A stretch of DNA of 30,936 nucleotides. It comes from a virus. Lineage: Duplodnaviria; Caudoviricetes. Numbering within the stretch: position 1 is the first letter of the stretch; each line of letters starts with the position of its first letter. Under the pieces are notes generated by a model. The model was not told the DNA's origin, did no database searches, and saw nothing but the letters and a program-made list of their open reading frames with translations. The DNA lies in the IMG/VR virus record IMGVR_UViG_3300025637_000039, positions 1 to 30,936 of that record; one strand, written 5' to 3'. The translations under genes were made by a program, and so were the position numbers. Shown here piece after piece: positions 11,315-30,936 of this stretch.

Positions 11315-14300
11315 ATGGCTGAAGTTAAAAATACTTTTCTTAAGGGGAAAATGAACCAAGATCTTGACTCTCGTATTGTGCCTAATGGTGAATATAGAGA
11401 AGCTAGAAACTTATCTATAAGTAGATCAGAAGGGTCTACAGTGGGTGAGTTTGAAAATGTTTTAGGTAATATAGCTATATCTAGTTTAACCTCTATAGGA
11501 GCGCCTGCTACAACAGAAATAATTGGTAAACTTATTGATGAGAATTCAAACATGGCTTACTTTATGGCTACTGATTGGAATCCAGGTGATGAATCTAGGG
11601 CTCCAGGAACAGCTAAGTGTTATATAGTAAGTGTAGACCTGTCTTCAACAAACCCCCCTTTAATACTGGTTCAAGGTAGTTTTTTAAATTTTAATCAAGG
11701 GTACATAATAACTGGTATAAATTTAATTGAAAATTTATTGTTTTGGACAGACAATTTAAACCAACCAAGAAAAATAAATGTTTCTTTAGCAACTAGTAAT
11801 TCATCTCATTACACAACAGAAGATCAAATATCTGTAGCTAAATATGCTCCCTTTGAGCCAATACTAGCTATGGAGAGGGTGCAAACAACTTTAAATGGGG
11901 ACGTTACAGCTTCCGATACTATAGTTGTAGCAGATTCTACCGGTATAAAAGTAGGTGATATTGTTACTGATAAAGTAAAACTTGGTGCACAACAAATATT
12001 AGAATTAGTTACAGTTATAGGAAAACCTGCTGTAGATCCGCTAGCTATTCCTCCTGTTGCAGCAAACACATTAACATTATCTATTCCTGTTACTATAATA
12101 GATGGTACTCCTTTAGATTTCAGCAGACCTTCTATGACTAATAAGAATAGATTATTTATGTCTAATCATTCTTCAGGTGCTGTAACAATTATTCCTTCTC
12201 CGGCTTTACCAACACCTAATCCAATAACAGCTGTATACACTATAAGCGCAACCGGAGCTGATGTTGATTTTTTATACAGCGGTAATAACGGAATACCTAA
12301 AGTAGGTGATTTAGTTAGTGGGCCAGGAATAGATCCTGATACTAGAGTTTCTTTTGTTGAGGTGCTAGACAATGACGCGGTCACACCTTCACAATCTATA
12401 TCTATAAAACTAAATAAAGAAACTACAACTGCTGATTCAGATGTTATATCAATAAGCGATAACCCTGATTATGACGCTAATTGGAAAGGTGATGAAAATT
12501 TTTTAGAGGATAAGTTTGTAAGGTTTAGTTATAGGTTTAAATTTGAAGATAACGAATATTCTTTAATGGCGCCTTTTAGCCAACCTATGTTTATACCAAA
12601 ACAATACAGTCAATTTGGCGGAGGCTTGTTATCTCCTACAGAAGATATGGATGACGCTTATAAATCTACTATAGTTGCTTGGTTTGAAAATAACATAAAC
12701 AATATATTGCTAAGAATTCCAGTAATGGAAGATACACCAGAAAATTTAATCAGTAACTTTAAAATAACAGATATTGATATATTATATAAAGAGTCTGACG
12801 CTTTAGCGGTAAAAGTACTTGAAACAGTACAATTGTCTAATCCATCACCTACCTTTTCCTCAATAGCATTTCACGATGCTATTCACGGTATAAATACTAA
12901 ATACTTTTTAGACTACGATTATAGCTCTACGAAGCCATATAAAACATTACCCAGCAATCAAGTAACTAGGGTATCAGATAGAGTTCCAGTAAGAGCTCTT
13001 GCTCAAGAAGTTATAGGTAACAGAATAGTTTATGGAAATTACTTAGACAGACACACGGGGCCGAACTCAATAGCTTTTAGCGCAAACGCTAGTAACAAAT
13101 CTATAAAGTTTGATAATTATACTCAATTCCCAAAACATCAATTAAAACAAAACAGAACGTATCAAGTAGGCTTTGTACTTTCAGACAGATACGGTAGACA
13201 ATCAGATGTTATTTTATCATCTTATGACAATGTTCCGGGCATATCGGGATCTACTGTTTTTAATCCTTACAATAACTTAGCCGAGCAAACCGCTACCCCA
13301 ATTTTAGATTGGCTAGGAGATGCTTTAGTAGTTACTTTAAATGAAGCTGTACAGTCAACCTACAATCCAGCTACAGGAACTCCTGGTATATATTCTATTG
13401 ATAATCCTTTAGGTTGGTTTTCTTACAAAATAGTAGTAAAGCAAACAGAACAAGAATATTATAATGTTTATTTACCTGGTTTTGTTAACGGCTATCCTGT
13501 TACTGAAAATAATGAAAGAAATAAAAGTTTTTTCACAACTCTTTTAGGTGACAATGTAAATAAAATACCTAGAAATCTAAAGGAAGTAGGCCCTAATGAT
13601 AGAGATTTCGGAAGTGATGAAGGTCTATATATTAGAGTTAATAATCCGCTTATAAATAATAAAAGCGGTGCAATATATCCAAAAACTGAAGCATGGAACG
13701 CTCAGTACTATCCAGCTGGAATAGAGCAAGAGGTTATACAAATAGCTACAGTCAGAGACATGGAAATACAAGCTATACCTTTCAAGCCAGACGCGCAAAA
13801 AGGAGAGTATGGAGAATCTAAGATATTAAGTGTCTATGAGTATGAGAATCCTCCTTACGGCGGTGCTATATCAGGTGTAAATGAAACACCTGAACCTACA
13901 GGTTCTATACCTTGGGGAACTTCAGGACCAGATGCACCTTTATACAGTGCAGATTCAAATCCTTTTGTTATGAAAGGCAATCAATCAGAAAATATAAATA
14001 ATCCAATAGGTGCTTATGTTACTACCTTCTCTGTAAACGCTCCGCCCCCGCCTCCTGATCGTCCTGTATTTTCTATGGTACCTTTCTTATCCGTAGCTGA
14101 AACAGAGCCAGTTGAATCTTTATTAGATATATTTTTTGAAACGTCGTTATCTGGAAATTTAGCAGAATTAAATGCTTTAGTTGATTCTGAGTATGGAGGA
14201 TTAACAAGTTCTAATTTTGCAGCTGCTGACTTTTTTGAAAATGCAGCAATTTCAACTATAGTAGGAACACCTTTCCAGTTTTTAGACGGCGCAGGGACTG

Positions 14301-15511
14301 CTATAAATGCTTCTCTTGTTAATATAGATAGTATAAGTATAATAGATGGAAATAATATAGCTTCAGATCCTAATAACCTTCCTTTTACGATAACACAAAA
14401 CGGAACAAGTTTTGAAATTAAAACTAACACTACATTTTTTTATGATACCACTGTAGATTTAGGTTATACAGGCGTATATACTATAACAGCTAACACAACT
14501 TATACTAGTGGTGCTGGAACTTTTCCTGACACTATAATATTACCAAAGATATCGTTAAAAAATTCAGCTCCTGTAATAAGTGCATTTACACAACCTACAA
14601 ATAGAACAACGCAAGCAAACCAAATTATAATAAATACATTAGCAGCTGTAAACGGTAGCGCAAAAACAAGTGTTAATACTCGAGAATTAGCATGGTCATT
14701 AGATCCGAGTAGAACAGATTTTTCTATAGATGAAAATACAGGTGATTTAACTTCTACTGAAGAATTAATTGACGATACGCTTTACAATGTGATAGTCAAG
14801 GTAACTGATCTTAATGGTAATGGCTCACCTAATGAGTTATCAGATACAGCAACCGTAACTTTCCAAGTTGGAGAACCTAGAGTAAACAGAGCTTTATGTG
14901 AAGGAAGCGGAGGGGCTTCGTTTACACCGATTACTACTTGTGGAGATAATTTACAAGTCCAATTTTTAAAGAGTAGCACGCTAGTTAATTTGGGGCCGCA
15001 AACGGTAGTAGGTCCGTCGAAAACAGTAACATATCCAGCTACAAGTAAAATAGACGGAAACATTTATAATGTACTTGCTAAAAATGATGGAAGTGCATCA
15101 TTGCCTCCGGTAACACATACAACAGGAGCTCTGGAACAAGGAGCGGTGGCTATAACATGTACTCTTACTAATGCAGGCGGTAGTGCAGGGCAAGAAGATG
15201 ATATTATTGGATTTACGATCCAATATAAACCTATTGGATCTGGTAGCTGGAGTCAAGCTACTGAGCTTATAGGTGGAGAACAAGAGTTTGTATACAACGA
15301 AGAATTACAAGTAGGAGTTGATGCTGCTGTTTCTATAACAAAGATTTTTAATGTTGCTGGAGAATATAGGGTTTTAACCACAACAATAACTGGTGGCCAA
15401 TGCTCTTTAGGTCCTCCAGATGATCAATTCACTAAGTTTACAGTTGATTTTGAAGATGCGAATTATCCTAGATCAAATCCGAGTAATTCATGTACTGATG
15501 CTCCGTTGTAA
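11315..15511 (+). CDS. Tail stabilisation (muzzle/nozzle-like) protein, N-terminal part, with inserted domains and a C-terminal cadherin/Ig-like region
   Basis: 1398 aa. Motifs typical of crAss-like stabilisation proteins: GKMNQDLDSR...EYREARN...ENVLGN, LLFWTDNLNQPRKIN, FSYRFKFEDNEYS, AQEVIGNRIVYGNY and NRTYQVGFVLSDRYGRQS. Confidence 0.7.
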   Translation: MAEVKNTFLKGKMNQDLDSRIVPNGEYREARNLSISRSEGSTVGEFENVLGNIAISSLTSIGAPATTEIIGKLIDENSNMAYFMATDWNPGDESRAPGTAKCYIVSVDLSSTNPPLILVQGSFLNFNQGYIITGINLIENLLFWTDNLNQPRKINVSLATSNSSHYTTEDQISVAKYAPFEPILAMERVQTTLNGDVTASDTIVVADSTGIKVGDIVTDKVKLGAQQILELVTVIGKPAVDPLAIPPVAANTLTLSIPVTIIDGTPLDFSRPSMTNKNRLFMSNHSSGAVTIIPSPALPTPNPITAVYTISATGADVDFLYSGNNGIPKVGDLVSGPGIDPDTRVSFVEVLDNDAVTPSQSISIKLNKETTTADSDVISISDNPDYDANWKGDENFLEDKFVRFSYRFKFEDNEYSLMAPFSQPMFIPKQYSQFGGGLLSPTEDMDDAYKSTIVAWFENNINNILLRIPVMEDTPENLISNFKITDIDILYKESDALAVKVLETVQLSNPSPTFSSIAFHDAIHGINTKYFLDYDYSSTKPYKTLPSNQVTRVSDRVPVRALAQEVIGNRIVYGNYLDRHTGPNSIAFSANASNKSIKFDNYTQFPKHQLKQNRTYQVGFVLSDRYGRQSDVILSSYDNVPGISGSTVFNPYNNLAEQTATPILDWLGDALVVTLNEAVQSTYNPATGTPGIYSIDNPLGWFSYKIVVKQTEQEYYNVYLPGFVNGYPVTENNERNKSFFTTLLGDNVNKIPRNLKEVGPNDRDFGSDEGLYIRVNNPLINNKSGAIYPKTEAWNAQYYPAGIEQEVIQIATVRDMEIQAIPFKPDAQKGEYGESKILSVYEYENPPYGGAISGVNETPEPTGSIPWGTSGPDAPLYSADSNPFVMKGNQSENINNPIGAYVTTFSVNAPPPPPDRPVFSMVPFLSVAETEPVESLLDIFFETSLSGNLAELNALVDSEYGGLTSSNFAAADFFENAAISTIVGTPFQFLDGAGTAINASLVNIDSISIIDGNNIASDPNNLPFTITQNGTSFEIKTNTTFFYDTTVDLGYTGVYTITANTTYTSGAGTFPDTIILPKISLKNSAPVISAFTQPTNRTTQANQIIINTLAAVNGSAKTSVNTRELAWSLDPSRTDFSIDENTGDLTSTEELIDDTLYNVIVKVTDLNGNGSPNELSDTATVTFQVGEPRVNRALCEGSGGASFTPITTCGDNLQVQFLKSSTLVNLGPQTVVGPSKTVTYPATSKIDGNIYNVLAKNDGSASLPPVTHTTGALEQGAVAITCTLTNAGGSAGQEDDIIGFTIQYKPIGSGSWSQATELIGGEQEFVYNEELQVGVDAAVSITKIFNVAGEYRVLTTTITGGQCSLGPPDDQFTKFTVDFEDANYPRSNPSNSCTDAPL

Positions 15512-15541
15512 TAAAAGAAAAAAACAAGTAATAAATATAAT

Positions 15542-17170
15542 ATGCCAATAACATTAGAAGTAGGATATTTTAACTCATTTTACATGAAGAGATTAGCTGA
15601 TCTTCCTATAGGTAATGGTGAAACAGGAGCTACAAATTATACAACTCCAACCACTAGCATAGTGCAAGAAGATTGGTATATAGAAGAGTCTAGAATACGA
15701 GGAGGTTATAATAATGTATCAACAGATTTAGGTGTAAAAGCTTATATCGTAGAAGATAACGATGCACAACAACGTAGAAAAAATTCATTAATATATTCAG
15801 GAGTATTTAATTCTAGAACAGGTGTAAACCAGTCTAATCAATTTAGTACAGCTGAAGAAACAACTAGAAGTGTTGATCCAGCCGGGGGAAGTATACAAAA
15901 GCTTTATGCTGAAGATACAAACTTAATAATATTTCAAGAGGATAAAGTAAACAGAGCTTTAATAGACAAAGATGCAATATATTCAGCAGAAGGATCTGCT
16001 ATAACAACTACAGCTAATTTAGTTATAGGTCAAATAGTCGCTTATGCTGGAGAATATGGAATATCAACTAACCCAGAATCTTTTGCTGTTTACGGATATC
16101 AAAAATATTTTGCTGATCGTAATAGAAACGCTGTATTAAGATTATCTAGAGATGGTATAACTGAAATATCTAACTACGGAATGATCGATTTCTTTAGAGA
16201 TAAGTTATCTTTAGTTGGAACAACTGGAAAAATAATAGGTTCTTACGATATATATAATAAAAATTACATAATATCTTTACAAGAAGCTAATAATAATAAT
16301 TACAATACACTAGGTTTTGAAGAAGCCACTAATGGTTGGATTAGTTTTTATGACTACAATCCAAGTAGCGGGTTTAGTTCGCAAGGTCAGTTTTTCACAA
16401 CCAACGGTACATCGGTATGGAAACACTATTCTACCGCTGTTAATAGAAGTAATTTTTACGGTACAGATAATAAGTCTTCTGTTAAACTAATATTAAATCC
16501 TGATCCTACAAGAGTAAAAACATTCAAGACAATAGACTATGAAGGCACGAGCGGATGGGAAGTTATATCTTTAATTTCAGATGATACAGGTACAGATTTT
16601 GTCAACGGAGTATGGGTTAATAATAGTGAGAAAGGAACTAGCACTGCTGATCCAGCAACTTTTACTATAACAAACGGTGGAAGCGGGTTTTATGTTACAG
16701 GTAACAATGTAGGTACTTCAACAGATGGATTTGGTGTTGGAATGAAAGTCAATATAGTTGTAGGCGGTGGCGGTGGTGTAAGCCAAATATCTATAATTGA
16801 TCCTGGATTTGGATATCAGCCAGGAGATGTGCAACAAATAGACATAAATAGCGGAAGCGCTATTGGAGTTTATGCTACATTTGTATTAGATACATATACT
16901 AACATATATAGTAGAATTTATAGTTACAATGAAGGTTTATATTTTGAAAGCAATATTCCTTATAGAGCTGGGTTTGATAGAAAACAAAACAGATATGTTG
17001 CCCCTATATTAAATAATTCACCAAACCCTTTACCTGGTCAAGTATTATCCGGACCTAGTAATACAGGTATAAAAGCTTATTATACAACAGTAACAATGCA
17101 AACAGATACTACTACAAATCCAGGTGGATTAAAAGAGTTGTTCGCAGTAGGATCAACATACGGAAGATAA
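15542..17170 (+). CDS. Tail stabilisation protein, C-terminal-like part (beta-propeller-type)
   Basis: 542 aa with IEESRIRGGYN, LIYSGVFNSRTGVN, GSIQKL and GEYGISTNPESFAVYG...YFADRNRNAVLRLSRDGITEIS, typical of the C-terminal half of P22 gp10-like/crAss muzzle proteins. Confidence 0.65.
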   Translation: MPITLEVGYFNSFYMKRLADLPIGNGETGATNYTTPTTSIVQEDWYIEESRIRGGYNNVSTDLGVKAYIVEDNDAQQRRKNSLIYSGVFNSRTGVNQSNQFSTAEETTRSVDPAGGSIQKLYAEDTNLIIFQEDKVNRALIDKDAIYSAEGSAITTTANLVIGQIVAYAGEYGISTNPESFAVYGYQKYFADRNRNAVLRLSRDGITEISNYGMIDFFRDKLSLVGTTGKIIGSYDIYNKNYIISLQEANNNNYNTLGFEEATNGWISFYDYNPSSGFSSQGQFFTTNGTSVWKHYSTAVNRSNFYGTDNKSSVKLILNPDPTRVKTFKTIDYEGTSGWEVISLISDDTGTDFVNGVWVNNSEKGTSTADPATFTITNGGSGFYVTGNNVGTSTDGFGVGMKVNIVVGGGGGVSQISIIDPGFGYQPGDVQQIDINSGSAIGVYATFVLDTYTNIYSRIYSYNEGLYFESNIPYRAGFDRKQNRYVAPILNNSPNPLPGQVLSGPSNTGIKAYYTTVTMQTDTTTNPGGLKELFAVGSTYGR

Positions 17171-19364: not shown

Positions 19365-22300
19365 ATGTATACAAATCAACAAGGTAATAAAGTAAGCGTT
19401 GAAGAAATGCAAAATCTAGCCCAAGAAGCTGGGGTAAGCGTTGAAGTTTATGCTAAAGCAGCAGGGTACTCACTGCAGTCAGAAGACGTTACAAAAGATC
19501 CTGAACCTAAAATAAAAGACGCCGATTTGCTTGATCCAACTTTTCAAAAAGACGCTGCAGCGGATGCAGATGTGGTGTCTCAACCAATGACAGCATCACA
19601 AGCGGAGTATGTAGAACCAGAAGATACGGAATCACAATCGGTAGATACTTCTTTGGATTCACCAGATCCTGCACCTAGATTTATAGAGTTTAAAGGTAAA
19701 GGAGATAGACCTGGCGCTATAGTATATGAAGACACTTATTTAGAAACTAAAGCAGGCCAGCCAGGGTATCCAGATACTTTTGATGAATATGCCGCTGCTT
19801 TTAACACAACACCGCAAAGTTCAAGTACTGAAGAAATAGCTATTAAAGCTACTTCAAATGAAAAAGTTTTTGAAAGTTTAAATAATTCATTTAAAGGCAT
19901 AGACTTAAGTGAAAAAACAAGTAGTTTTGATCTTAACCCAGGCAATACTAAAATATATAATCAAGAAGAAGAGGTTGTCAGGCCAACACTTAACCAGCTA
20001 TTTGAAGGCTCTGGAGTTGATTTTGAAGAAATTGATATAGTACAAGAGGGTGATGTAAATGCAGTGCTTGGAAGCGAAGCTTTAAGAGCTAGAATTAAAA
20101 ACCCTGAAACAGGGGAATATATATATTCAGAAATCTTAGAATTGGAATCTGATGGGTCTTTCATGAACAACGATAAAATTGAAAAATTTTTAGATGAAAA
20201 TAAATCATATTTAGATCTACCTAAGTGGACTAGGTCTAAAAATAAAATGATCGCAAAGTACAAGCAATGGAAAAATAGCGAATTAGACCCTATAATAAAT
20301 AAAGCAAGAGTTGAAGCGGAACAAGCATATATAGTCAACCCAGATCTTTTTAAACCTTACGATAAAAAAATATTTGTAGGAGGATTTAATACCAGTACTA
20401 CTGTTACAGAAACAATCAACCCTTACCAAAAAGAAATAGCTCAAGAAATAAATAGGCTAGAAAGAAAAGGTGTCAAAGAAAACTTAGAAGCACAAGCAAA
20501 AATAAACGTAAGACAAAATTTAAAACAAGCTGATATAAACGAAGCAATACGCGAAACCAGAGCTAAATTTATAAATGCATCTTCTAACACAGAAAAAGCT
20601 CAAGCATTTTTATACGCTAGCGAAACCTTTGTTAAGAAAGAGGAAGCTAAAGCTTATAATAAAAATAATGAAGAGGCTCAAATAGCTAAAGAAGGAGCGA
20701 ATAAATATCAAAAGCAACAACAGGCTGCTGTAGATGTTTTTAGCGCAACTCCTAGCGAAAATCAAAGTGTTGATGATTTTATTACTCAACAAAAAAATAA
20801 ACTGCAACCTATAATAGACGAGCTAAATATAGAAATACCTGAAGATACTAAGGAAAAAATAAATAGCCCAAAGTTAAACATGCTTCTTGGTTTAGACGAA
20901 GAGGTTTTGTTACCTAAAAGTTTTTATAATATAATGATGGCTTTAGAAGACGCAAAAAATGCGAACATAAGCAATTATAATGATAAAAGAATCAAAATGG
21001 CTGAAAGCATAGGCGACATATCAGATATTGATGTTGCGATGGAAGCTACTGCTAAAAATTACGAGCTTGTAGAAAAATACGCTGTAAACGCTGGGCTAGG
21101 TTTTCAAGATATTGTTGTAAACACAACAATGCTTGGATTAAATATATTATCATTAGGGCAAAGTGAAAAGGTAGCTCAACTGGGATCAGATTACGTTGAA
21201 TACACAAAAGAAATTAGAGATTCGTATCAAAGAGATGTTTCTTTTGATGAAGCTTTTTCTACACCTGGAAATACAGGTAAATTTATAGCGCAAGAAGTAG
21301 CAAATCAATTACCTATATTTTTAGCTATGGCTGCTTCTGGAGGTTCTGCCGCTTATGTAATTGGAGCATCTAGTGCTGGAGGCAAGATGATGGATATGCA
21401 AAATGAAATAGCTACAGGTACAGCCGAGTATTCTCCTATTAAATTATGGGCAACAAGTTTAGGCTACGGTTTAGCAGAAGGTCTTTTTGCTCAAGTAACT
21501 ACAGTACCTATTTTAAAAAGAGCTAAGCTTAATTGGATGAATAACGGTAAGGAGTCTGTTGTTAATAATTCCATGAGGGAATACGCAAAAACCCAATATA
21601 AAGGACTTATATATGAGCCTATTTTAGAAGCCTCAGGTGAAGCTGCAACGGTTGGAGTACAGAATCTGATAGACGGTAAACCTTTTATGCAAGGCATGGA
21701 CCACGCGAGTACCTCAGGTTTAGCTTTTGGTTTTGCTTTTGCGGCAATACCATTTCTTAAAGGAATGTACAATTCTCAGTTTTCTACCTATGAAACTAGA
21801 AGTGAAATTAGAACCATGCAAAATGAGTTAGATGGTTTAAACAAAAAGTTAAACCTAAACTTGTTTGCAAATTCCAATTTATCTGATAAAAGTAAGTCTA
21901 TTTTAAAAGGGAAACAGGATTTACTAAAACAATCTATTGAAGAAAAAAGTATTCAGCTTGCAGATAAAATTAAGCAGCAAGAAGTAATTGTAACTAATAA
22001 TTTAACAGAAGGCGCAAAAAACGAAGTAGTAAAAATTATAAACAAACAGGCTGAATTAGAAAATATAGCAATAGAAATTCAAAAAAACCCTAATATAAGC
22101 AACAAGGAAAGAGCTCAATTAATAGCTGAAGTAAAATCACAATACGATGTTGCGGTTAAAGCAAGAAACGAAGCGGTTAAAGATGAAACCATGCTTAAGA
22201 ATGGTACAGAATGGGCTGCTTTTAAAGGGTTAAATAGATCTGAATCTCAGGAATATTTAGACACCGCAGACGCTATGTTGTCTGGTGAAAGAAACGGTAA

Positions 22301-25300
22301 GCAAGCAAGTAAAGAAGATATAAATGATAGAGCTTATGATCTTTATTTTGGAGATAAAATTAGAGTAGAAAACAAAAAACTAGGTAGAAGTAATTCAAGT
22401 CTGTTTAAAAACTTTAAATCTTTAGAAACTATAGATGAAGCTATAGTTGAAGTTAATAATGACGATACAATTGATTCTGAAGATAAAAAGAAAATAATAT
22501 TAAAGCTAAAAAACGGCAATGATGGCTATTGGAATCCAGCTAGTGGTACCATGATTGCTATTGTTGAAAACCAAGTAAAAAATCAAAGAAAGTATATTAA
22601 AACACATGAAGTAGGTCACAAGGCTTTTGAAATGTTATTAGGCAATCCTAAAAACAATGCTGCCTTTAAAGGTATAAGTGATCAACTTTTGTCAACTTTA
22701 AAAGCTACAGATAGAAAAACTTACGATAAATTTATAAAAGACGGTATTGATGATGATGCGGGAAATATAGATCCTACGGAAGTAATATCTAGATTCATGG
22801 AATATGTTGCTGATGATCAGATAACAAATGTACAAAAAGCAAAAGGTATTTCTGGTCTTTTTGGTGTTATGATTCAAAAAACATTTGGTAGCGATTATAA
22901 ATTTGATTTTAGAGGAGAGCAAGATATATTTAATTTTGTTGTTGGATTAGGAAAAAAATTAAAAGACGGTACTCTAACTACAGCTGATATTAAGAAAGCT
23001 AAAGAAAGTAAAGTTATAAAAGATTTACCTACTTCTGATACAACAACAGACGTTGATAAAAAAGTTAGCTTTAGTAAAGCAAGTTTACAAACTGAGTTAA
23101 ATACTTTGAAAGAAAATGAATTTGACTATGACCCAGAACAGTTTCAATCTCTTGTAAGCAACTTAGAAACAAAAATAAGAATTGCTGGAAAAAAAGAAGC
23201 CGCTAAGCCAAAACCTAAGACATTAGGATTTGATACTAGTGAAGAATCGGTAATAGGTCAAATAAATAATTTAGTACCTAAAGAAATTACAACCAACAAA
23301 GAATACAAGGAAAATAAAAAAGTACAAAACGAAATAGACAAAGCATTTAAGCCTAATGGTATTATTAGCAATATTATCAAAGGTAGATTTGGTGGAGGGG
23401 ATTTGTTTATTGAAACATTGAATAGTGTTAAAAACAGAGCGGTAAGATATGATCCTGCAGCAGAAAGAAAAAAAGCAGGCAATAACGATCCTGTTACTTT
23501 TGCTGAATTTATTTTTTCTAATGTAAACTTTAGTAAGTTAGATGCTGCTAAAAAACTAGCTATAAAAGCGGCGGATCAAAAAAAGAAAACAGACCTTGAT
23601 AATAAAGAGGCTCAAGGTAAAACAACAGAAGAAGATTCTGGACCAACAGCAGATACTAGAAAAAAATATAAGCCATTAATTTCAAATCCTAAATTAATAC
23701 CTAGTTTTATATCTAGTGAAATTAAAACAAAGCTTGCAAATGTAGCAAGTAAATTAAAATCAAAATTATCAGACAGACCTAAAGGTAAAAATGCGCAAAC
23801 GACTCCATTAGTAGCAGAAATTAAAAAAGCTATTGGGAATGTTGTTAAAGATCCAAAAGCTTTACCTAAGCAGATAATAAATCGCATGGGTAATCCTAAA
23901 GATGGATCATATCAAAAGTTTTTAATAGATAATAAAAAATCTATTTTAGAGAACATGACAACCACTTATCTGCAATCGGCTATACCTGCGGCTATAGAAA
24001 AATCTGTTGGAGGTACTTATGCTTTAGATAGTGATGGTAAAAGAAAAAAAGACAGCAACGGTAATGATATTTTTAAACCAAAGTTTGTTCCTTATCCAGA
24101 ATGGGTAGGTAAAGAAATTGACCGTGAAAAAGTTTCTACTAATAAAAAAGGAGGAACATCTGGTAATCAAATAGTTAGAAGAGCTATTCAAAAAGAAGTA
24201 GATGGCAGGTTTGAAGACAGCATTACTGACGAAGATTTTGTAGCAAATTTTGTTGGAAGTGATGGAAAAGTTATACGCGGTAAAAGAGAATCACTAGGAA
24301 AAGCATTAGCAGAAGAAGCTGGATTTGAGGTTTTTGTTTCAGAATTAAAAAACGATAAAGTAGTTACTCAGAAAGATTTAGACGAAGACGTAATCGGACA
24401 GTTTGAAGGCAAGCAAGCCGGGGATTTTGTTAGCGATGTAAGACAAGAATTCAAAGATAATCAGGAAGCTTTGGGAGAAATCTTAGGAGATAATACTGTA
24501 GCTTTAGTGTCGAGAGATATTGAAAGAGGCACGGTTAAATTTAGCAAAGGTAAAAGACAAGCGCTTACAGAAATAGCTAATGCTAGGTCAAGTAAGAAAG
24601 TTAATGAAATTATTGGTATAGAAAAACAAGCTATAAACAATAAAAACAGAGTACAAAAACAAAAAGATTTTGAAAAGATAATAATAAAATACAATTTATC
24701 ATTAGAAGCTTTTGATGGTGGTGCTTTAAAAAATTCAGGAGCTATAAGAACTAGACCTGGCAAATCAGGAGCTGATGCTAATAAATTAAACAAATGGCTG
24801 GCAGCTAATCCCAAAGTAAAATTTTCGCCAAATCAAGTTTGGTACGCTTTAAGTAATGGTGATTGGATAAAAGCAGGAACTAAGTATAATAAAGCAAAAA
24901 ACATTACTACAATTCAAATTCCCACGCTTGAAGCTATTGCTAAAGTTGGTGATGGAAATGCAACATTAGTGGCTAATACTAATAGATTGTACTACGGATC
25001 GTCTGATCCAGCTTATATTGCTGCTAGAAAATTAGCCGCTAAAAATTCAGTAGACGCTTCTGTGTACAAAACAGGTAGAGTTACTACAGACTTTTTTGGA
25101 GTAAAAGCAATTGAAAAGTTTAAACAGAACATGCTACTTATGGAAAGGGTTGCTTATGAACTACAGGATGCTGTAGCGGGTGGTATGCCTAAGGAAATTG
25201 CTGCAATGATTATCGAAGGAGGGTACCAAGCAACTTCTGGTTTTATAAAAATAGCAGCAGGTTTTAAGTATAAATCAAAAGTTTTTGAATATGCTTTGTC

Positions 25301-28300
25301 TGGAAAACCAAATCAAACAAGAGGTAAAAAATATAGAGAAGAACACAATCCACCTGCTTCAACAGTAGGAGGAACTTTGTTGTGGGCTATAGTTAATAAT
25401 CAGGTAGGAGATGTAATGCCTTATGTTAAAAAGAATTACTATCAAACTCAATTATCAGTTAAAGATGATGCTAAAATTGATGACGCTGGATTAGACGGAA
25501 CTTTACCTGAGGGATATAGCTTGCTTAATGATCCAGTAATACGTTTAATAAAATCAGGCATTGGGTTAAGTTCTTTAATAGATCCAAACACAGGTTTAAG
25601 TATGGCTCAAGAGTACGGTGTTAAAGTAGACGATTCTGCTTTGCAACTTCAGCCAGACGTTATAGAAAAGCAAGGTGAACTGGTAGAAAGACAATTAACA
25701 GATCCTAAGTTTACTAAGAAAGATTCTCAAAAATTTATTGATCAATTCATTAAGCTAGCGCCTGCGTTGAACAAGGCAAACATTATAAACAATAAAAAAT
25801 TAGCATATCCTTTTAAAGAAAAAGTAACCAGTAAAAAATTACTTGATAGGTCAAACACTATTCAAAAAGCAATTAATAACGGTAGATCCGTTAGTTTTTC
25901 TAGTGCGCCTAAAAAAATACGTGTATTTGATTTTGATGATACTTTAGCTAGAACTAATAGTAATGTACTATATACAATGCCGGATGGCACAGAAGGCTCT
26001 ATAGATGCCGCCACGTTTGCAAAAGACGCGAGCATGATGCAAGCTGAAGGCGCTATATTTGATTTTAGTGAATTTAGCAAGGTTATGGATGGTAAAAAAG
26101 GCCCATTGTTTGAAGTAGCTAAAAAAATAGCGCAAGCTAGAGGTACTAAAGATGTGTTTGTTTTAACTGCTAGGCCTCAAGATGCTGCAGGTCCTATACA
26201 GGAATTTTTAGCTGAACTTGGTTTAGATATTCCATTAGAAAATATTACCGGTTTAGCTGATGGTGATCCTAAGGCAAAAGCTAATTGGATGGTTGGTAAA
26301 GTAGCTGAAGGTTATAATGATTTTTACTTTGCTGATGATCATTTAGGAAATGTCAAAGCTGTTAAAGATGTATTTAATACTTTCGATGTGAAAGGTAAAG
26401 TGCAACAAGCTAAGATTAAATTCAGTAAAGGTTTAGACAAGGGCTTTAATGATATGATTGAGCGTCAAACTGGTACAGAGTCTTTTAAAGAGTTTTCTAA
26501 AGGGGTAGCGCAAAGAAGAGGTAAGAAAGTTGGTAAGTTTAAAATATTTGTTTCGCCTTCAGCTGAAGACTTTAGAGGATTAACCCAGTATAAGTTTGCA
26601 GGTAAAGGTAAGCAAGGTGAAGCTGATCAAAAATTCTTTGAAGAAGCATTGATGGATCCTTATTTTAAAGGTGTTGCTGCAGTAGAAGCCGCAAGAGAAA
26701 CAATAAAGAACGACACTAAAGCTCTTTTTAAAATATTTAAACCTGTTAAAAAGAAATTAAACAAGCTAGTTCCAGGTATTGATTTTACTTATGACGGTGC
26801 TGTTCGTGTTTATCTTTGGAACAAAGCAGGTATAGAAATACCAGGTCTTACTAAGAGAGATAACAAAAAATTAAATGACGTTGTAGCAAATGATCCTGAG
26901 CTTAGTGCTTTTGCAGATGCTTTATTATTGGTATCCAAGCAAGACACGTGGCCTGCGCCTACTGAATACTGGGAAGCAAAAACAACCTTAAGTGATTTAA
27001 ACACATTAACTGAAAAAACAAATAGAAAAGAATATTTAAAAGAGTTTATTGAAAACGTTGATATAATATTTAGTGAAAAGAATCTAAATAAAGTGGAGGC
27101 ATTGTACGGTAAAGCATCAAGAACTGCTATTGAAAACGCTATATACGCTATGAAGACAGGTAGCAATAGCCCTAATCAAAACGGAGATGTTATAACAAAC
27201 AGATGGCTAAAGTGGGTTAATAACTCTATAGGTACGATAATGTTTTTTAACAGAAGATCAGCTTTGTTACAATTAACTTCTGTTACAAACTTTTTAAATT
27301 GGTCAGATAATAATCTAGCTAAAGCAGCATTGGCATTTGCTAATCAACCGCAATACTGGAAAGATTGGGCTATGATATTCAATTCGGATAAATTAAAACA
27401 ACGTAGAAGTGGTTTAAAATCTGATGTACAAGAATCTGAAATAGCTAATGCAGCTAAAAACACGGAAGATAAAATAGGTTCAATTATAGCTTATCTGTTA
27501 AAAATAGGTTTTTCACCAACACAAATAGCGGATAGTATTGCTATATCTTCAGGTGGTGCTACTTTTTATAGAAATAGAGTTAATACTTATAAAAAGCAAG
27601 GTTTAGATGTAAAAGAAGCAGAAACAAAAGCTTTTGAAGATATGAGTAAGCTTTCTGACGAATCACAGCAATCAGGTGATCCTGCTTTAGTGTCTCAACA
27701 ACAGCGAAGCGTTGCGGGACGTCTTATATTATCTTTTCAGAACACGACTATGCAATACACTAGGTTAATGAAAAAATCTGGTCAGGATCTTATAAACAGA
27801 CGTGGGGACCCAAAGACTCATATATCTAGGATACTATATTATGGAGCTTTGATGAATTTTATATTTAACGCACTGTCTCAGACTGCATTTGCATTAATAC
27901 CTGGTTTTGATGAGGAAGAAGAGGAAGATAAAGTTAAAAGAGATGAAAAACTTGAAGAAAAAGCATCTAGAGTTTTAAATGGTATGGCAGATTCTATTAT
28001 CAGAGGTACTGGTATATACGGGGCTGTTGTCACTACTTTAAAAAATACATTCAATACTTGGAAAAGAGAAGCTGATAAAGGTTTTAAAGGTGATCAAGCT
28101 AAGACGCTTCTTGAAGCAGCTAACATATCTCCGGCTATAGGATCTAAACTTAGAAAAATATACTCAGCAATACAGGCTTACCAATTTGACAAAGCAGTAA
28201 TGGAGAAACACCCATGGAGCGTGACTATAGACGGTAAGTTTAATCCTTCTGCAACATATAGTGTAATTGGGAATGTAGCGTCAGCAACTCTTAATTTACC

Positions 28301-28625
28301 TTTAGATAGAGCTTTAGCAGAAGCTAGAGGTGTGGCTGAAATGTTTGACAATAGAAATAGTGAAATGCAAAGAATAGCATTAGCTCTAGGGTGGAGAACT
28401 TGGAATGTTGGTGCTAAAAATGAGGAGTTTGATCTTATAAAAATGGAAGCTAAGCAAGCTAAGAAAGATAAAAAAGCAGAAGAAAAAGCGCAATATAAAG
28501 CTTATTTAAGAAGAGTTGGATCAAAATTAAGCTTAGAAGAAGCTAACGCTTATAGAAGAATCAAAAGCGCTAAGTTGAAAAAAGAATACATATTAAAAAT
28601 AGGTGAAGAAAAAGGTATAAAATAA
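19365..28625 (+). CDS. Giant (3086 aa) multidomain virion/ejection protein with zincin protease and HAD phosphatase domains
   Basis: Uninterrupted ORF. HEVGH at 22605-22619. HAD motifs DFDDT (25929), LTAR (26163), K, and FADD (26328). The helical C-terminal region resembles large internal virion proteins. Confidence 0.8.
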   Translation: MYTNQQGNKVSVEEMQNLAQEAGVSVEVYAKAAGYSLQSEDVTKDPEPKIKDADLLDPTFQKDAAADADVVSQPMTASQAEYVEPEDTESQSVDTSLDSPDPAPRFIEFKGKGDRPGAIVYEDTYLETKAGQPGYPDTFDEYAAAFNTTPQSSSTEEIAIKATSNEKVFESLNNSFKGIDLSEKTSSFDLNPGNTKIYNQEEEVVRPTLNQLFEGSGVDFEEIDIVQEGDVNAVLGSEALRARIKNPETGEYIYSEILELESDGSFMNNDKIEKFLDENKSYLDLPKWTRSKNKMIAKYKQWKNSELDPIINKARVEAEQAYIVNPDLFKPYDKKIFVGGFNTSTTVTETINPYQKEIAQEINRLERKGVKENLEAQAKINVRQNLKQADINEAIRETRAKFINASSNTEKAQAFLYASETFVKKEEAKAYNKNNEEAQIAKEGANKYQKQQQAAVDVFSATPSENQSVDDFITQQKNKLQPIIDELNIEIPEDTKEKINSPKLNMLLGLDEEVLLPKSFYNIMMALEDAKNANISNYNDKRIKMAESIGDISDIDVAMEATAKNYELVEKYAVNAGLGFQDIVVNTTMLGLNILSLGQSEKVAQLGSDYVEYTKEIRDSYQRDVSFDEAFSTPGNTGKFIAQEVANQLPIFLAMAASGGSAAYVIGASSAGGKMMDMQNEIATGTAEYSPIKLWATSLGYGLAEGLFAQVTTVPILKRAKLNWMNNGKESVVNNSMREYAKTQYKGLIYEPILEASGEAATVGVQNLIDGKPFMQGMDHASTSGLAFGFAFAAIPFLKGMYNSQFSTYETRSEIRTMQNELDGLNKKLNLNLFANSNLSDKSKSILKGKQDLLKQSIEEKSIQLADKIKQQEVIVTNNLTEGAKNEVVKIINKQAELENIAIEIQKNPNISNKERAQLIAEVKSQYDVAVKARNEAVKDETMLKNGTEWAAFKGLNRSESQEYLDTADAMLSGERNGKQASKEDINDRAYDLYFGDKIRVENKKLGRSNSSLFKNFKSLETIDEAIVEVNNDDTIDSEDKKKIILKLKNGNDGYWNPASGTMIAIVENQVKNQRKYIKTHEVGHKAFEMLLGNPKNNAAFKGISDQLLSTLKATDRKTYDKFIKDGIDDDAGNIDPTEVISRFMEYVADDQITNVQKAKGISGLFGVMIQKTFGSDYKFDFRGEQDIFNFVVGLGKKLKDGTLTTADIKKAKESKVIKDLPTSDTTTDVDKKVSFSKASLQTELNTLKENEFDYDPEQFQSLVSNLETKIRIAGKKEAAKPKPKTLGFDTSEESVIGQINNLVPKEITTNKEYKENKKVQNEIDKAFKPNGIISNIIKGRFGGGDLFIETLNSVKNRAVRYDPAAERKKAGNNDPVTFAEFIFSNVNFSKLDAAKKLAIKAADQKKKTDLDNKEAQGKTTEEDSGPTADTRKKYKPLISNPKLIPSFISSEIKTKLANVASKLKSKLSDRPKGKNAQTTPLVAEIKKAIGNVVKDPKALPKQIINRMGNPKDGSYQKFLIDNKKSILENMTTTYLQSAIPAAIEKSVGGTYALDSDGKRKKDSNGNDIFKPKFVPYPEWVGKEIDREKVSTNKKGGTSGNQIVRRAIQKEVDGRFEDSITDEDFVANFVGSDGKVIRGKRESLGKALAEEAGFEVFVSELKNDKVVTQKDLDEDVIGQFEGKQAGDFVSDVRQEFKDNQEALGEILGDNTVALVSRDIERGTVKFSKGKRQALTEIANARSSKKVNEIIGIEKQAINNKNRVQKQKDFEKIIIKYNLSLEAFDGGALKNSGAIRTRPGKSGADANKLNKWLAANPKVKFSPNQVWYALSNGDWIKAGTKYNKAKNITTIQIPTLEAIAKVGDGNATLVANTNRLYYGSSDPAYIAARKLAAKNSVDASVYKTGRVTTDFFGVKAIEKFKQNMLLMERVAYELQDAVAGGMPKEIAAMIIEGGYQATSGFIKIAAGFKYKSKVFEYALSGKPNQTRGKKYREEHNPPASTVGGTLLWAIVNNQVGDVMPYVKKNYYQTQLSVKDDAKIDDAGLDGTLPEGYSLLNDPVIRLIKSGIGLSSLIDPNTGLSMAQEYGVKVDDSALQLQPDVIEKQGELVERQLTDPKFTKKDSQKFIDQFIKLAPALNKANIINNKKLAYPFKEKVTSKKLLDRSNTIQKAINNGRSVSFSSAPKKIRVFDFDDTLARTNSNVLYTMPDGTEGSIDAATFAKDASMMQAEGAIFDFSEFSKVMDGKKGPLFEVAKKIAQARGTKDVFVLTARPQDAAGPIQEFLAELGLDIPLENITGLADGDPKAKANWMVGKVAEGYNDFYFADDHLGNVKAVKDVFNTFDVKGKVQQAKIKFSKGLDKGFNDMIERQTGTESFKEFSKGVAQRRGKKVGKFKIFVSPSAEDFRGLTQYKFAGKGKQGEADQKFFEEALMDPYFKGVAAVEAARETIKNDTKALFKIFKPVKKKLNKLVPGIDFTYDGAVRVYLWNKAGIEIPGLTKRDNKKLNDVVANDPELSAFADALLLVSKQDTWPAPTEYWEAKTTLSDLNTLTEKTNRKEYLKEFIENVDIIFSEKNLNKVEALYGKASRTAIENAIYAMKTGSNSPNQNGDVITNRWLKWVNNSIGTIMFFNRRSALLQLTSVTNFLNWSDNNLAKAALAFANQPQYWKDWAMIFNSDKLKQRRSGLKSDVQESEIANAAKNTEDKIGSIIAYLLKIGFSPTQIADSIAISSGGATFYRNRVNTYKKQGLDVKEAETKAFEDMSKLSDESQQSGDPALVSQQQRSVAGRLILSFQNTTMQYTRLMKKSGQDLINRRGDPKTHISRILYYGALMNFIFNALSQTAFALIPGFDEEEEEDKVKRDEKLEEKASRVLNGMADSIIRGTGIYGAVVTTLKNTFNTWKREADKGFKGDQAKTLLEAANISPAIGSKLRKIYSAIQAYQFDKAVMEKHPWSVTIDGKFNPSATYSVIGNVASATLNLPLDRALAEARGVAEMFDNRNSEMQRIALALGWRTWNVGAKNEEFDLIKMEAKQAKKDKKAEEKAQYKAYLRRVGSKLSLEEANAYRRIKSAKLKKEYILKIGEEKGIK
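19538..19678 (+). other. Candidate programmed -1 ribosomal frameshift signal and transframe segment
   Basis: A_ACT_TTT, then a 6-nt spacer, then a 9-bp stem (19551-19559 with 19571-19579) whose loop GATGC can pair with GCATC at 19593-19597. The -1 frame is open from 19535 to TAG at 19676-19678. Confidence 0.5.
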
Positions 28626-28984
28626 TGAAGTTTAAATATTTTACTTACGGAGAGTTTGATTCTCCAGACTTAAAAGGTAGTGGTAAAAATGTAAGTGATG
28701 AACTTATAAGCATGCTAGATATTGCTCGTAAAAAATATGGTAAAGCTATTAATCTTAACTCAGGGTTTAGAACAGTTGAACATAATAAATCTGTTGGAGG
28801 GAAACCTGATTCGTCACATTTAAAAGGCTTAGCGGTTGACATTGCATGTAAAAACTCTACAGACAGGTTTAAACTTGAAGGTGTATTAAGAGAAGTTGGA
28901 TTCAAAAGAATAGGTATGGGTTCAACATTTATACATGTAGATATAGATAAAGATAAATCACAAAATGTCCTTTGGACATACTAA
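28625..28984 (+). CDS. Peptidase M15 family endolysin (Zn peptidoglycan peptidase)
   Basis: SGFR..HN..VGG...SSHLKGLAVDI and FIHVD motifs (SxHxxGxAxD plus HxD). Coupled to the giant gene by TAATG. Confidence 0.88.
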   Translation: MKFKYFTYGEFDSPDLKGSGKNVSDELISMLDIARKKYGKAINLNSGFRTVEHNKSVGGKPDSSHLKGLAVDIACKNSTDRFKLEGVLREVGFKRIGMGSTFIHVDIDKDKSQNVLWTY

Positions 28985-28994
28985 AACAAAAACT

Positions 28995-29132
28995 ATGAAT
29001 ATTAAATGCGGATCACCATTCAAATTAAAAGATGCTTGCTATAAAAAAGTTAAAGCACAGTATAAGGTATTTCCGTCGGCTTATGCTAGCGGAGCAATAG
29101 CTAAGTGTAGAAAAAATAAAGGTAAAAAATAA
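28995..29132 (+). CDS. Small basic protein (45 aa), not in the ORF track
   Basis: MNIKCGSPFKLKDACYKKVKAQYKVFPSAYASGAIAKCRKNKGKK* with start context AAAACAAAAACT-ATG. I recall DACY.KVK..Y.V.PSAYASGA..KCRK as a recurrent motif in marine phage proteins. Confidence 0.8.
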   Translation: MNIKCGSPFKLKDACYKKVKAQYKVFPSAYASGAIAKCRKNKGKK

Positions 29133-29156
29133 TAAATAAAAGTAAAAATAATAATT

Positions 29157-29615
29157 ATGAGAGATTTAGATTTAAGAAAGCAATTAAAATCCTTTGGAAA
29201 AGGATTGATTAAAGGAGTAGCAGCTTCGGTTACAGGAGGAGCAAGCTTAGGAGCAAATGTTGCAAAAAACTTTGCACAACCTAAAGTTGGCAATTTGCCA
29301 AGCATAACAGAAGCAGGAAGCAATCAGAAACCTACAAAAAAAGCTTCTACCGGCATGAGGGCTACTAGTAAAAAACTAAAAGGAGCAAAAGCTATTAGTA
29401 AAAAAATGCAAAAATCAAAAAAACTTGAAAAGCTTCCGGCTACGTTTACTAGCGCTAAGCAAGCGGAGATTAAAACTGTAAAAACAAAATCTCCCTCACC
29501 TAAGATTAGCAAAGCTAAACCTACTGTTAAAAAAACAAATAGTAATAAAAAAGTTAAGACAAAGGTTAAAACAAATAAAAGAGGAGTAGTTAAGATTAAA
29601 ACAAAAATAAAATAA
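29157..29615 (+). CDS. Lysine-rich, histone H1-like basic protein
   Basis: 152 aa with a very K/T/S/A-rich C-terminal two thirds, a good A-rich start context, and coupling to the next gene (TAATG). Confidence 0.65.
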   Translation: MRDLDLRKQLKSFGKGLIKGVAASVTGGASLGANVAKNFAQPKVGNLPSITEAGSNQKPTKKASTGMRATSKKLKGAKAISKKMQKSKKLEKLPATFTSAKQAEIKTVKTKSPSPKISKAKPTVKKTNSNKKVKTKVKTNKRGVVKIKTKIK

Positions 29616-29878
29616 TGTACCAATCACCATTAAGCAAAGTTAGAAAAAGCAAAAAGGGGGCATCTCTTAGACGTTGGTTTAAAGAAGAATGGCAGACACC
29701 TAGTGGAGATAAAGACTATAGCGGTGGTGAAAACTTATTCAGACCAAAGAAAAGAATAAATAGCAAAACAGCTACAACCTGGAGCGAGTTAACTCCTGCT
29801 GAAAAAACAGCTGCTCAAAAAGAAAAAAATAGTAAAGGAAGAGTTAGTAGATTTAAAAAGAAAAAAAGGAATAAATAA
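29615..29878 (+). CDS. Small basic protein with LRRWFKEEW motif (DUF5872-like)
   Basis: 87 aa with GASLRRWFKEEW...FRPKKRINSKTATTWSELT, resembling the C-terminal half of DUF5872-type viral proteins. Confidence 0.65.
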   Translation: MYQSPLSKVRKSKKGASLRRWFKEEWQTPSGDKDYSGGENLFRPKKRINSKTATTWSELTPAEKTAAQKEKNSKGRVSRFKKKKRNK

Positions 29879-29913
29879 ATTGGGCGTACCATACCCACAA
29901 ATTCCTGTAAATG

Positions 29914-29945
29914 AAAAGGGCCCTCAATACGAGAGCCCTTTTTTT
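29914..29945. terminator. Bidirectional intrinsic terminator between convergent modules
   Basis: AAAAGGGC-CCTC-AATAC-GAGA-GCCC-TTTTTTT, with T runs on both strands, located between converging genes. Confidence 0.8.
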
Positions 29946-29976
29946 AATATGCATAATACGCATGTGTATAGCATAC

Positions 29977-30936
29977 TTATCCATCGCACGCTAAACAATC
30001 TTCACTCATAGCTTTCTGCGCTATATCGCCACGCAAAACAGATTCTGTTCTAGTATAATACAAAGTCTTAACACCTTTCTTCCAGGCATCAAAGTGAACT
30101 TTGTTCAACCATTTAGGTGTTGCTTCAGAAGGAAATGCTAAATTCAAACTAACTGATTGATCTACATATTCCTGCCTAAGACCTGCTTGATTAACTAACT
30201 CCAATTGATTGATCTCTTTAAAGGTTTTAAAAACTTCCTTGGCGGGTATGTCATGAGCCAGGGTAATACCATCAAGCTCACTAATGTTTTGAACACTACC
30301 ACCATCAGCCAGTATTTTATCCCATGTTTCATTATTATTAATTTTTAATTTTCTTAACAGCTTTACTAGCGTCGGGTTTTTCCTAATGAAAGTCCCTTTC
30401 GCACTTTGCTCTGTAAAAACATTTGCAGCCCACGGCTCAATACCCGGTGAAACATTACCGCTAAGCTTACTATTAGAAACAGTAGGAGCAATAGCACGGA
30501 GATGAGTATTACGCATACCGGTACCAATACACCATAAAGGCTCTCCATAAATTTCCGCAAGATCTCTTGAGGCTCTTTCACTTTCGATTTTAATTTGTGA
30601 AAATATTTTCCTAGTCTCAAACTGAGCAAGTAAACCTTCAAAAGGTAATCCCTTTTCTTGGAGATATGTGTGCCATCCAAGTACACCCAATCCGAGCGCT
30701 CTTCCTTTTTGAGCAGAACGAATGGCATTTTCAAAACCTCTAAGTCCTTTTGCTCTTTGAATAAATTCCTCCATAACCCCATCAAGAAACCACGTAGCGT
30801 GGTATATAAGGTTAGTGTCTTTCCATTCTTCATATTTAGCTAAGTTTAATGATGATAGACAGCAAACAAAGCTGTGGTTCTCATCTGTTGTTAATGTTAT
30901 TTCTGAACATATATTAGTCATATGTACTTTTAGTCC
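29977..30936 (-). CDS. nrdA: Ribonucleotide reductase class I alpha subunit (5'-truncated by window edge)
   Basis: The frame is open to the window edge (GLKVHMTNICSEI). Contains catalytic NxCxE, VCCLSSLNL, AIAPTVSNS, GIEP, DQSVSLN, the KTLYY tyrosine pair and C-terminal CLACDG. Confidence 0.93.
   Translation of the reverse strand, partial: GLKVHMTNICSEITLTTDENHSFVCCLSSLNLAKYEEWKDTNLIYHATWFLDGVMEEFIQRAKGLRGFENAIRSAQKGRALGLGVLGWHTYLQEKGLPFEGLLAQFETRKIFSQIKIESERASRDLAEIYGEPLWCIGTGMRNTHLRAIAPTVSNSKLSGNVSPGIEPWAANVFTEQSAKGTFIRKNPTLVKLLRKLKINNNETWDKILADGGSVQNISELDGITLAHDIPAKEVFKTFKEINQLELVNQAGLRQEYVDQSVSLNLAFPSEATPKWLNKVHFDAWKKGVKTLYYTRTESVLRGDIAQKAMSEDCLACDG
30366..30833 (-). CDS. Overprinted +1-frame ORF inside nrdA, basic protein with a long hydrophobic segment
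   Basis: 155 stop-free codons on the same strand as nrdA. Start context TTAAACTTAGCTAAAT-ATG. nrdA uses CTT/ATT/GTT wherever NTA would create a stop. Hydrophobic run at aa ~99-128. Confidence 0.55.
   Translation of the reverse strand: MKNGKTLTLYTTLRGFLMGLWRNLFKEQKDLEVLKMPFVLLKKEERSDWVYLDGTHISKKRDYLLKVYLLSLRLGKYFHKLKSKVKEPQEILRKFMESLYGVLVPVCVILISVLLLLLFLIVSLAVMFHRVLSRGLQMFLQSKVRKGLSLGKTRR

What the first reader, a model, noticed from the sequence alone, without database searches (positions are those of the whole stretch)
22400..26430. Giant virion protein looks like a self-processing polyprotein: zincin plus cargo modules delimited by [VI]xFS[KS]
Seen: an HExxH motif (THEVGH, aa 1081) with a downstream Glu (DPTEVISRF), followed by repeats VSFSK (23064), VKFSK (24534), VSFSS (25890) and IKFSK (26415), plus VNFSK (23523) and VKFSP (24816). 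VSFSS and IKFSK bracket the HAD domain almost exactly, and the other intervals each hold a distinct module. Known: phage and plasmid polyvalent proteins combine zincin metallopeptidases with varied effectors and are proposed to be injected and processed. Inference: the motif is the zincin cleavage site or a cassette junction, so an injected protein releases several host-takeover or anti-defence enzymes. It occupies the slot where crAss-like phages encode a virion RNA polymerase.
Basis: partly seen in the sequence, partly recalled or inferred. Interest (0 to 1): 0.85.

Follow-up and report, generated by a model that had tools for sequence, protein, structure and literature searches.

The report
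Swappable cassettes in phage protease polyprotein
A 3,086-residue protein in the particle-building genes of an uncultured phage is a string of modules that relatives swap at a short Phe-Ser-Lys tag, and because the tag changes or fades with the protein's own zinc-protease domain it is likely the cutting site for a long-proposed but untested self-processing step.

Summary
Observation confirmed, with corrections. ORF 19365-28625 holds an intact zincin (HExxH 1081, E1139). Four tags lie at module joints (aa 1234, 1724, 2176, 2351); VNFSK and VKFSP lie inside folded domains and are not conserved. Between close relatives, 90 of 161 homology breakpoints fall within 10 aa of FSK (12 expected). The constraint is on protein, not DNA: Ser uses both codon families. 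A sister family that includes cultured Flavobacterium phage elemo uses R-x-Q instead (229 of 484 breakpoints, 27 expected), and one clade that lacks the central zincin lacks the tag. Modules: sigma-region-2-like fold, a putative His-Me nuclease, a PNKP-type HAD phosphatase (a P-loop kinase or nothing in relatives). Best reading: zincin cleavage site (0.62); no cleavage is shown, and a non-cutting hinge for ejection remains open. No RNA polymerase motif; the phage is nearer Elemovirus than crAss. It is a new variant of the known polyvalent proteins. This scan noted the same theme, with other tags, on other DNA.

The parts
19365..28625 (+). Giant 3,086-aa ORF, last of three putative cargo genes of the structural module
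   Evidence: synteny with elemo gp18, annotated 'structural protein'
19365..22202 (+). N-terminal region (aa 1-946), nearly free of the tag; Gly/Ala-rich hydrophobic stretch near aa 648; weakly homologous to the N-terminal part of elemo gp18
22203..23006 (+). Zincin metallopeptidase domain (aa 947-1214); HExxH at nt 22605-22619, third ligand E1139 at nt 22779
   Evidence: invariant residues; fold matches 1yqy Z 7.3 rmsd 6.2 over 192 aa and PPEP-2 6fpc Z 6.6 rmsd 4.3 over 140 aa
23064..23078 (+). Junction J1 (VSFSK, aa 1234), at the end of a low-confidence linker
   Evidence: FS 31, LS 7, AS 2 of 66 rows
23079..23204 (+). Optional acidic helical hairpin (aa 1239-1280), absent right after J1 in relatives with 94-97% identical zincin region
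23235..23564 (+). Sigma-factor region-2-like domain (aa 1291-1400); holds the non-junction VNFSK at 23523
   Evidence: VIA 2o7g Z 7.0 rmsd 3.1, 85 of 89 aa, plus SigB, FliA, SigK, SigR, RpoS, BldN; not found by sequence
23682..24533 (+). Conserved alpha/beta domain of unknown function (aa 1440-1723), rest of slot 1
24534..24548 (+). Junction J2 (VKFSK, aa 1724)
   Evidence: x-Ser in 64 of 66 rows: FS 53, RS 6, LS 4, WS 1; loop between helices; breakpoints
24549..25889 (+). Slot-2 hypervariable cassette (aa 1729-2175) with invariant E-E-H-x-P-P core at nt 25338-25361; putative His-Me-finger-like nuclease; holds the non-junction VKFSP at 24816
   Evidence: nuclease call is inferred from motif and strand-strand-helix order only
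25890..25904 (+). Junction J3 (VSFSS, aa 2176)
   Evidence: weakly kept in the distant set
25905..26396 (+). Slot-3 HAD phosphatase of PNKP 3'-phosphatase type (DxD at aa 2189-2191)
   Evidence: VIA 5uj0 Z 11.8 rmsd 2.4 over 120 aa, 4xrp Z 11.2; phrog_415 E 3.4e-5; Pfam HAD E 0.0012, under cut-off
26415..26429 (+). Junction J4 (IKFSK, aa 2351)
26430..28622 (+). Conserved helical C-terminal region (aa 2356-3086), unknown function

Best explanation
The protein is a modular phage polyprotein whose cassettes are swapped between relatives at a short (Lys/small)-Phe-Ser-Lys tag, and that tag is likely the site where the protein's own zincin cuts the chain into separate working parts. Shown: the four joints, the swaps, the intact zincin residues, the protein-level constraint. 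Inferred: the protein is packed in the head and ejected (gene position; the syntenic elemo gene is annotated structural); the zincin reads the tag in exposed linkers only, first at J1 next to it, then J2-J4, in the head or after ejection; the cut is probably just before the Ser, the one near-invariant residue (a Ser start would also escape the bacterial N-end rule, recalled knowledge); products would be a sigma-2-like/unknown piece, a putative nuclease, an end-healing phosphatase and the C-terminal piece. A new cassette is kept only if both flanking tags survive, which is why recombination appears to happen at the tag.
For: Breakpoints: 90 of 161 within 10 aa of FSK, 12.0 expected; left edges peak at F+2/+3, right edges at F-1/0, so both tags are kept. 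FSK is the top word de novo, 98 of 267 vs 12.5. Tags begin just after the zincin: FSK 10 in 99,147 aa upstream, 276 in 99,336 aa in the cargo zone; replicated in 134 unseen proteins. Ser codons at J2 12 AGY/21 TCN, J4 12/3; codon identity between junctions 55 of 116 vs 55.7 expected. Sister family with a distant zincin (elemo type, 120 proteins): R-x-Q at 229 of 484 breakpoints vs 26.7, FS 11 vs 26.0. P0101-P0103 show K-R/S-S at every junction I could place. Zincin-less clade: FSK 0 of 67 breakpoints; J4 Ser 7 of 17 vs 132 of 133 with zincin, counted by eye. Eight proteins with EExxH keep the catalytic Glu and, in most, the tag. Four joints lie in loops or confidence dips of the models. Closest folds are peptidases.
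Against: No cleavage data. The zincin-less proteins form one clade (17 of 17, support 1.0), so that loss is one event, and they carry another HExxH domain at the C-terminus. The two-family tag contrast is two lineages, not many. The residue before Ser varies widely (F, A, E, H, L, R, Y, W), loose for a protease. FSK also occurs inside the HAD cap (aa 2237) and a conserved [FY]S at aa 2377. J3 is poorly kept in the distant set. The slot-2/HAD/C-terminal model has pTM 0.69, suggesting the modules pack together, and J4 is drawn as a weak helix. 71 of 161 breakpoints are not near FSK. N4 virion RNAP has an HExxH domain and is packaged unprocessed (PMC5512222, passages) and is described as linked beads on a string (PMC13434306 section 7).
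Confidence: 0.62

Rival explanations
1. The tag is a docking or hinge signal that is read without cutting (by the zincin fold, the portal or the tail), keeping the chain in one piece as beads on a string during packing and ejection.
For: N4 vRNAP has an HExxH domain yet is packaged whole (PMC5512222) and has long linkers between folded units (PMC13434306); model pTM 0.69 across J3 and J4; loose position before Ser. It also predicts protein-level conservation and lineage-specific words.
Against: All four catalytic residues are invariant and HExxH is intact in 134 of 134 representatives (these were selected with a zincin profile); a pure binding role need not keep the catalytic Glu.
Confidence: 0.2
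2. The tags are cut, but by another protease (host, or a phage maturation protease), and the zincin has a different target.
For: Iyer et al. allow that such zincins act on host proteins; half of this genome is missing (48% complete), so another protease could be encoded there.
Against: Tags start right after the zincin and are rare before it; the word differs between zincin clades and fades where the zincin is missing.
Confidence: 0.11
3. The tag is only the translated trace of a DNA recombination site or microhomology used for cassette exchange.
For: Breakpoints sit exactly on it; J3 Ser is TCN in 14 of 14 contexts.
Against: Ser uses both codon families at J2 and J4, and junctions within a gene share codons no more than chance (55 of 116 vs 55.7); window codons differ at the four joints; amino-acid variants keep Ser.
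Confidence: 0.05

Closest known systems
Phage-type polyvalent proteins with zincin-like MPTase (Iyer et al. 2017, PMC5512222; abstract, outline and 12 passages seen)
   Same: Giant phage protein joining unrelated enzymatic domains with an HExxH+Glu zincin of lethal-factor-like fold; autoproteolytic release of domains was proposed there. The elemo-type sister family carries PF18760, PF18838, PF18857 (recalled as ART-PolyVal, LPD23, LPD38).
   Different: No cleavage motif in the passages seen ('linker' 0 occurrences); this protein has no Pfam polyvalent domain; cargo set (sigma-2-like, EHxxP, PNKP-type HAD) and fixed slots bounded by a tag are not described in what I read.
crAss-like phage cargo proteins gp65/gp66/gp67 of phi14:2 (bioRxiv 10.1101/2020.03.07.982082; 3 passages seen)
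   Same: Three adjacent virion cargo genes, one with a zincin, fused in some phages into a polyprotein thought to be cleaved; crAss muzzle Pfam hits upstream.
   Different: No RNA polymerase motif in 200 of 200 proteins; capsid protein matches are Elemovirus and Cellulophaga phages.
Flavobacterium phage elemo gp18 (YP_010109083, Elemovirus)
   Same: Same gene slot, homologous N-terminal part (E about 1e-10) and zincin (E 1.3e-7); cassettes swapped at a short tag.
   Different: Tag is R-x-Q; cargo and C-terminal region show no match to this protein.
Coliphage N4 virion RNA polymerase (PMC13434306; passages and section 7 seen)
   Same: Giant ejected protein with an HExxH domain and linked folded units.
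   Different: Carries an RNAP, reported packaged unprocessed; no junction tag mentioned in what I read.

Membership tests
Polyvalent proteins (Iyer 2017) | Several domains of unrelated activity in one chain | tested here: met
   zincin, sigma-2-like, HAD folds; P-loop kinase and LysM in relatives
Polyvalent proteins (Iyer 2017) | Zincin-like MPTase: HExxH helix plus downstream Glu | tested here: met
   invariant H1081, E1082, H1085, E1139; fold matches Z 6.0-7.3, modest
Polyvalent proteins (Iyer 2017) | Encoded by a phage or mobile element in a virion/transfer context | tested here: met
   downstream of terminase, portal, capsid and muzzle genes; virus record
Polyvalent proteins (Iyer 2017) | Packaged and injected with the DNA; autoprocessed | not testable with these tools
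   context and GenBank labels of syntenic genes only
crAss-like virion RNA polymerase | DFDxD catalytic motif | tested here: not met
   none in the protein; N/A-x-D[FY]D[GI]D in 0 of 200 family members
Crassvirales | Capsid protein affinity | tested here: inconclusive
   85 phage records match, all Flavobacterium, Cellulophaga, Maribacter or unclassified; crAss muzzle Pfam hits; no tree built
PNKP-type HAD 3'-phosphatase | HAD fold with DxD motif I | tested here: met
   top three fold hits are Pnkp phosphatases, Z 10.9-11.8, rmsd 2.4-2.5; substrate not tested
Sigma70 family | Region 2 fold | tested here: inconclusive
   more than ten sigma entries at Z 5.5-7.0, under the Z 8 caution line; Pfam 0 of 24 members, own-genome search none, hhalign to FliA E 0.14 in register
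His-Me finger (HNH-like) nucleases | strand-strand-helix core with catalytic His | tested here: inconclusive
   invariant EEHxPP and D2039, matching secondary-structure order; the fold search was filled by the HAD domain

The most novel reading that the evidence does not exclude
Phage polyvalent proteins are programmable protease cassettes: each zincin clade has its own short cutting code (K-F-S-K here, R-x-Q in elemo), so the tag predicts the released effectors in over a thousand protein clusters; in this family the ejected pieces include a sigma-region-2 mimic that would engage host RNA polymerase, a fast-diversifying nuclease and an exchangeable end-healing half of polynucleotide kinase/phosphatase.
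Probability: 0.4. Interest if true: 0.86.

Novelty: new variant of a known kind. Interest (0 to 1): 0.72.

Why it matters
Self-processing of polyvalent proteins by their zincin was proposed in 2017 without a site. A junction tag that tracks the zincin gives residue-level predictions, and the sister family includes a cultured phage (elemo) where they can be tested on real virions. The zincin profile matches 1,095 clusters at E 1e-10 or better, so a confirmed code would give a rule for cutting many unannotated giant phage proteins into their effectors, and a new short-motif protease.

Tried and rejected
Single-sequence zincin scan of viral contigs: 0 relatives of 119 stretches. tblastn of the giant protein against cultured phages: none. 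Pfam on the whole protein and pieces: only HAD under cut-off; PHROGs: only polynucleotide kinase; PADLOC: 0 of 10. ESM Atlas: only unnamed clusters or nothing. PDB sequence searches with zincin and sigma-like profiles: nothing significant. Foldseek on model 1: nothing at E 0.001; Foldseek on model 2 could not be run, so slot 2 and the C-terminal region have no fold test of their own. BLAST HSP ends were too coarse for breakpoints. Loose junction regexes gave false hits and were replaced. Apparent gene splits in L022, L059, L039 fall inside domains and look like frameshifts, not splits at the tag. VNFSK, VKFSP, IGFSP and SEFSK rejected as junctions. Seven self or near-self proteins (P0001-P0005, P0017, P0030) were dropped before set-1 counts. 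Literature searches showed no paper naming such a tag; the library lacks most subscription papers, and the supplements of Iyer 2017 were not seen and may bear on this.
Full report
Setting. The window is a 30,936-base virus record, about 48% complete, with terminase, portal, capsid and crAss-type muzzle genes followed by ORFs of 258, 450 and 3,086 aa. The capsid protein matches 85 phage records at 48% identity or less: Flavobacterium phage elemo, Maribacter phage Panino, Cellulophaga phages and one unclassified podovirus. In elemo the same slot holds 203-, 450- and 3,694-aa genes, the last annotated 'structural protein'. Virion location of the window's protein is therefore inferred.

The observation. 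As the pattern was chosen on this protein, I tested it elsewhere. A zincin-region search gave 103 proteins; after dropping 7 self or near-self rows, FSK occurred 10 times in 99,147 aa before the zincin, 276 in 99,336 aa of the cargo zone and 57 in 65,002 aa of the C-terminal region. In 134 new cluster representatives from a profile search the exact pattern occurred 53 times downstream (6.8 expected) and twice upstream (4.3 expected).

Which motifs are joints. Two AlphaFold models cover aa 901-1752 (pLDDT 74, pTM 0.39) and aa 1700-2720 (pLDDT 80, pTM 0.69). J1 ends a low-confidence linker, J2 and J3 lie in loops between domains, J4 in a weak helix at a confidence dip after the HAD fold. VNFSK is inside a long helix and VKFSP inside the slot-2 domain; both are unconserved. 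J2 has x-Ser in 64 of 66 rows; J1 is harder to align (FS 31 of 66); J3 is kept in the close family but mostly not directly before the HAD domain in the distant set.

Cassette swaps. I aligned 277 pairs of close relatives and called homology breakpoints without using the motif. For non-homologous blocks of 150 aa or more, 90 of 161 unique edges lay within 10 aa of FSK (12.0 expected) at zincin identity of 80% or more, and 130 of 361 (24.3 expected) at 50% or more. Homology ends just after FS(K) and resumes at F; for example P0025 and P0026, 99% identical in the zincin, differ wholly between two tags. A de novo word count put FSK first, 98 of 267 against 12.5. Slot 2 has about ten sequence types, slot 3 holds a HAD domain, a P-loop kinase (PF13671, PF06414) or nothing, and extra cassettes occur. 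Some slot-2 types are distant alleles of one EHxxP family rather than unrelated modules (m2 probability 94.6; m8 and m9 not significant; the m4 profile overlapped the query set).

What the modules are. Zincin: best fold matches are the lethal-factor catalytic domain (Z 7.3) and Pro-Pro endopeptidases (Z 6.0-6.6), modest scores. aa 1291-1400 matches sigma region 2 in more than ten entries (best Z 7.0, rmsd 3.1, 85 of 89 aa), unsupported by sequence tests. The HAD domain is closest to T4 Pnkp and Pnkp1 3'-phosphatases (Z 11.8, 11.2); its replacement resembles kinases including polynucleotide kinase, so slot 3 likely heals nucleic-acid ends. Slot 2 has an invariant EEHxPP core, which I read from recalled HNH-type motifs as a His-Me-like nuclease; no fold match was obtained. 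No RNA polymerase motif occurs in 200 of 200 proteins.

DNA or protein. In 79 loci plus the window, strict junction patterns gave Ser codons of 12 AGY and 21 TCN at J2, 12 and 3 at J4, 0 and 14 at J3; identical residues at different junctions of one gene shared a codon 55 of 116 times against 55.7 expected. The constraint is on the peptide.

A second set found with the slot-2 module (103 new proteins among the 120 listed of 246) widens the word to K-x-S (KFS 21 and K.S 59 of 225 breakpoints against 3.2 and 19.6). Eighteen of them lack the central zincin; their 67 breakpoints show no FS or K.S excess, and J4 keeps Ser in 7 of 17 against 132 of 133 with zincin by eye (a stricter pattern gave 0 of 17 and 115 of 133). 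They are one clade and have another HExxH domain at the C-terminus, so this is one event. Eight proteins have EExxH and keep the catalytic Glu. Elemo gp18 has a distantly related zincin; among 120 of its 296 relatives, R-x-Q marks 229 of 484 breakpoints (26.7 expected) and FS is not enriched. Residues before the HExxH helix differ between the two families. All this fits a protease specificity code but also a non-cutting docking word.

Against. No cut is shown; the position before Ser is loose; FSK also occurs inside folded parts; the second model suggests packed modules; N4 vRNAP with its HExxH domain is reported to be packaged whole (PMC5512222) and is described as beads on a string (PMC13434306).

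Known versus new. Polyvalent proteins and their proposed zincin self-processing are known (PMC5512222), as is a probably cleaved crAss polyprotein (bioRxiv 2020.03.07.982082). Seven literature searches showed no paper naming a junction tag; coverage is limited and supplements were not seen. Earlier AI notes of this scan report the same theme with other tags on other DNA (unchecked), none on look-alike DNA. Added here: blind breakpoint statistics, an out-of-sample test, the codon test, the tag switch and loss with the zincin, and a cultured test system. Verdict: real feature, new variant of a known kind, interest 0.72.

Noticed in passing
L109:2052-13136 (elemo gp18, NC_055854.1): Cultured phage protein with a related zincin and R-x-Q tags at cassette joints (about aa 1683, 2079, 2302); a ready test system.
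   Followed up: yes
P0104-P0110, P0112, P0113, P0125, P0130, P0168, P0171, P0193, P0195, P0201, P0205, P0206: One clade lacks the central zincin and tags; the full-length members end in a small C-terminal HExxH domain of unknown role.
   Followed up: partly
P0143, P0144, P0153, P0169, P0172, P0179, P0182, P0194: Zincin variant with EExxH in place of HExxH.
   Followed up: partly
window 26493-26501: A conserved [FY]S 24 aa after J4 (YS 29, FS 24 of 71 lettered rows): a second site or a structural feature.
   Followed up: no
window 11315-17170: The crAss-type muzzle protein is in two genes here (1,398 and 542 aa; phrog_14478 N- and C-terminal parts), but one gene in elemo.
   Followed up: no
L023 (aa 1998-2150 of P0046), P0125 (aa 1804-1951): Insertions of about 150 aa inside the HAD cap at the same place, not at a tag.
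   Followed up: no
P0149: Carries both a P-loop kinase and part of the HAD domain after slot 2, like a full polynucleotide kinase/phosphatase.
   Followed up: no
P0103, P0150: LysM domain among the cassettes after the zincin.
   Followed up: no
window 28625-30936: Peptidase M15 gene abutting the giant ORF, a Lys-rich 152-aa ORF, DUF5872 and a ribonucleotide reductase fragment on the minus strand.
   Followed up: no
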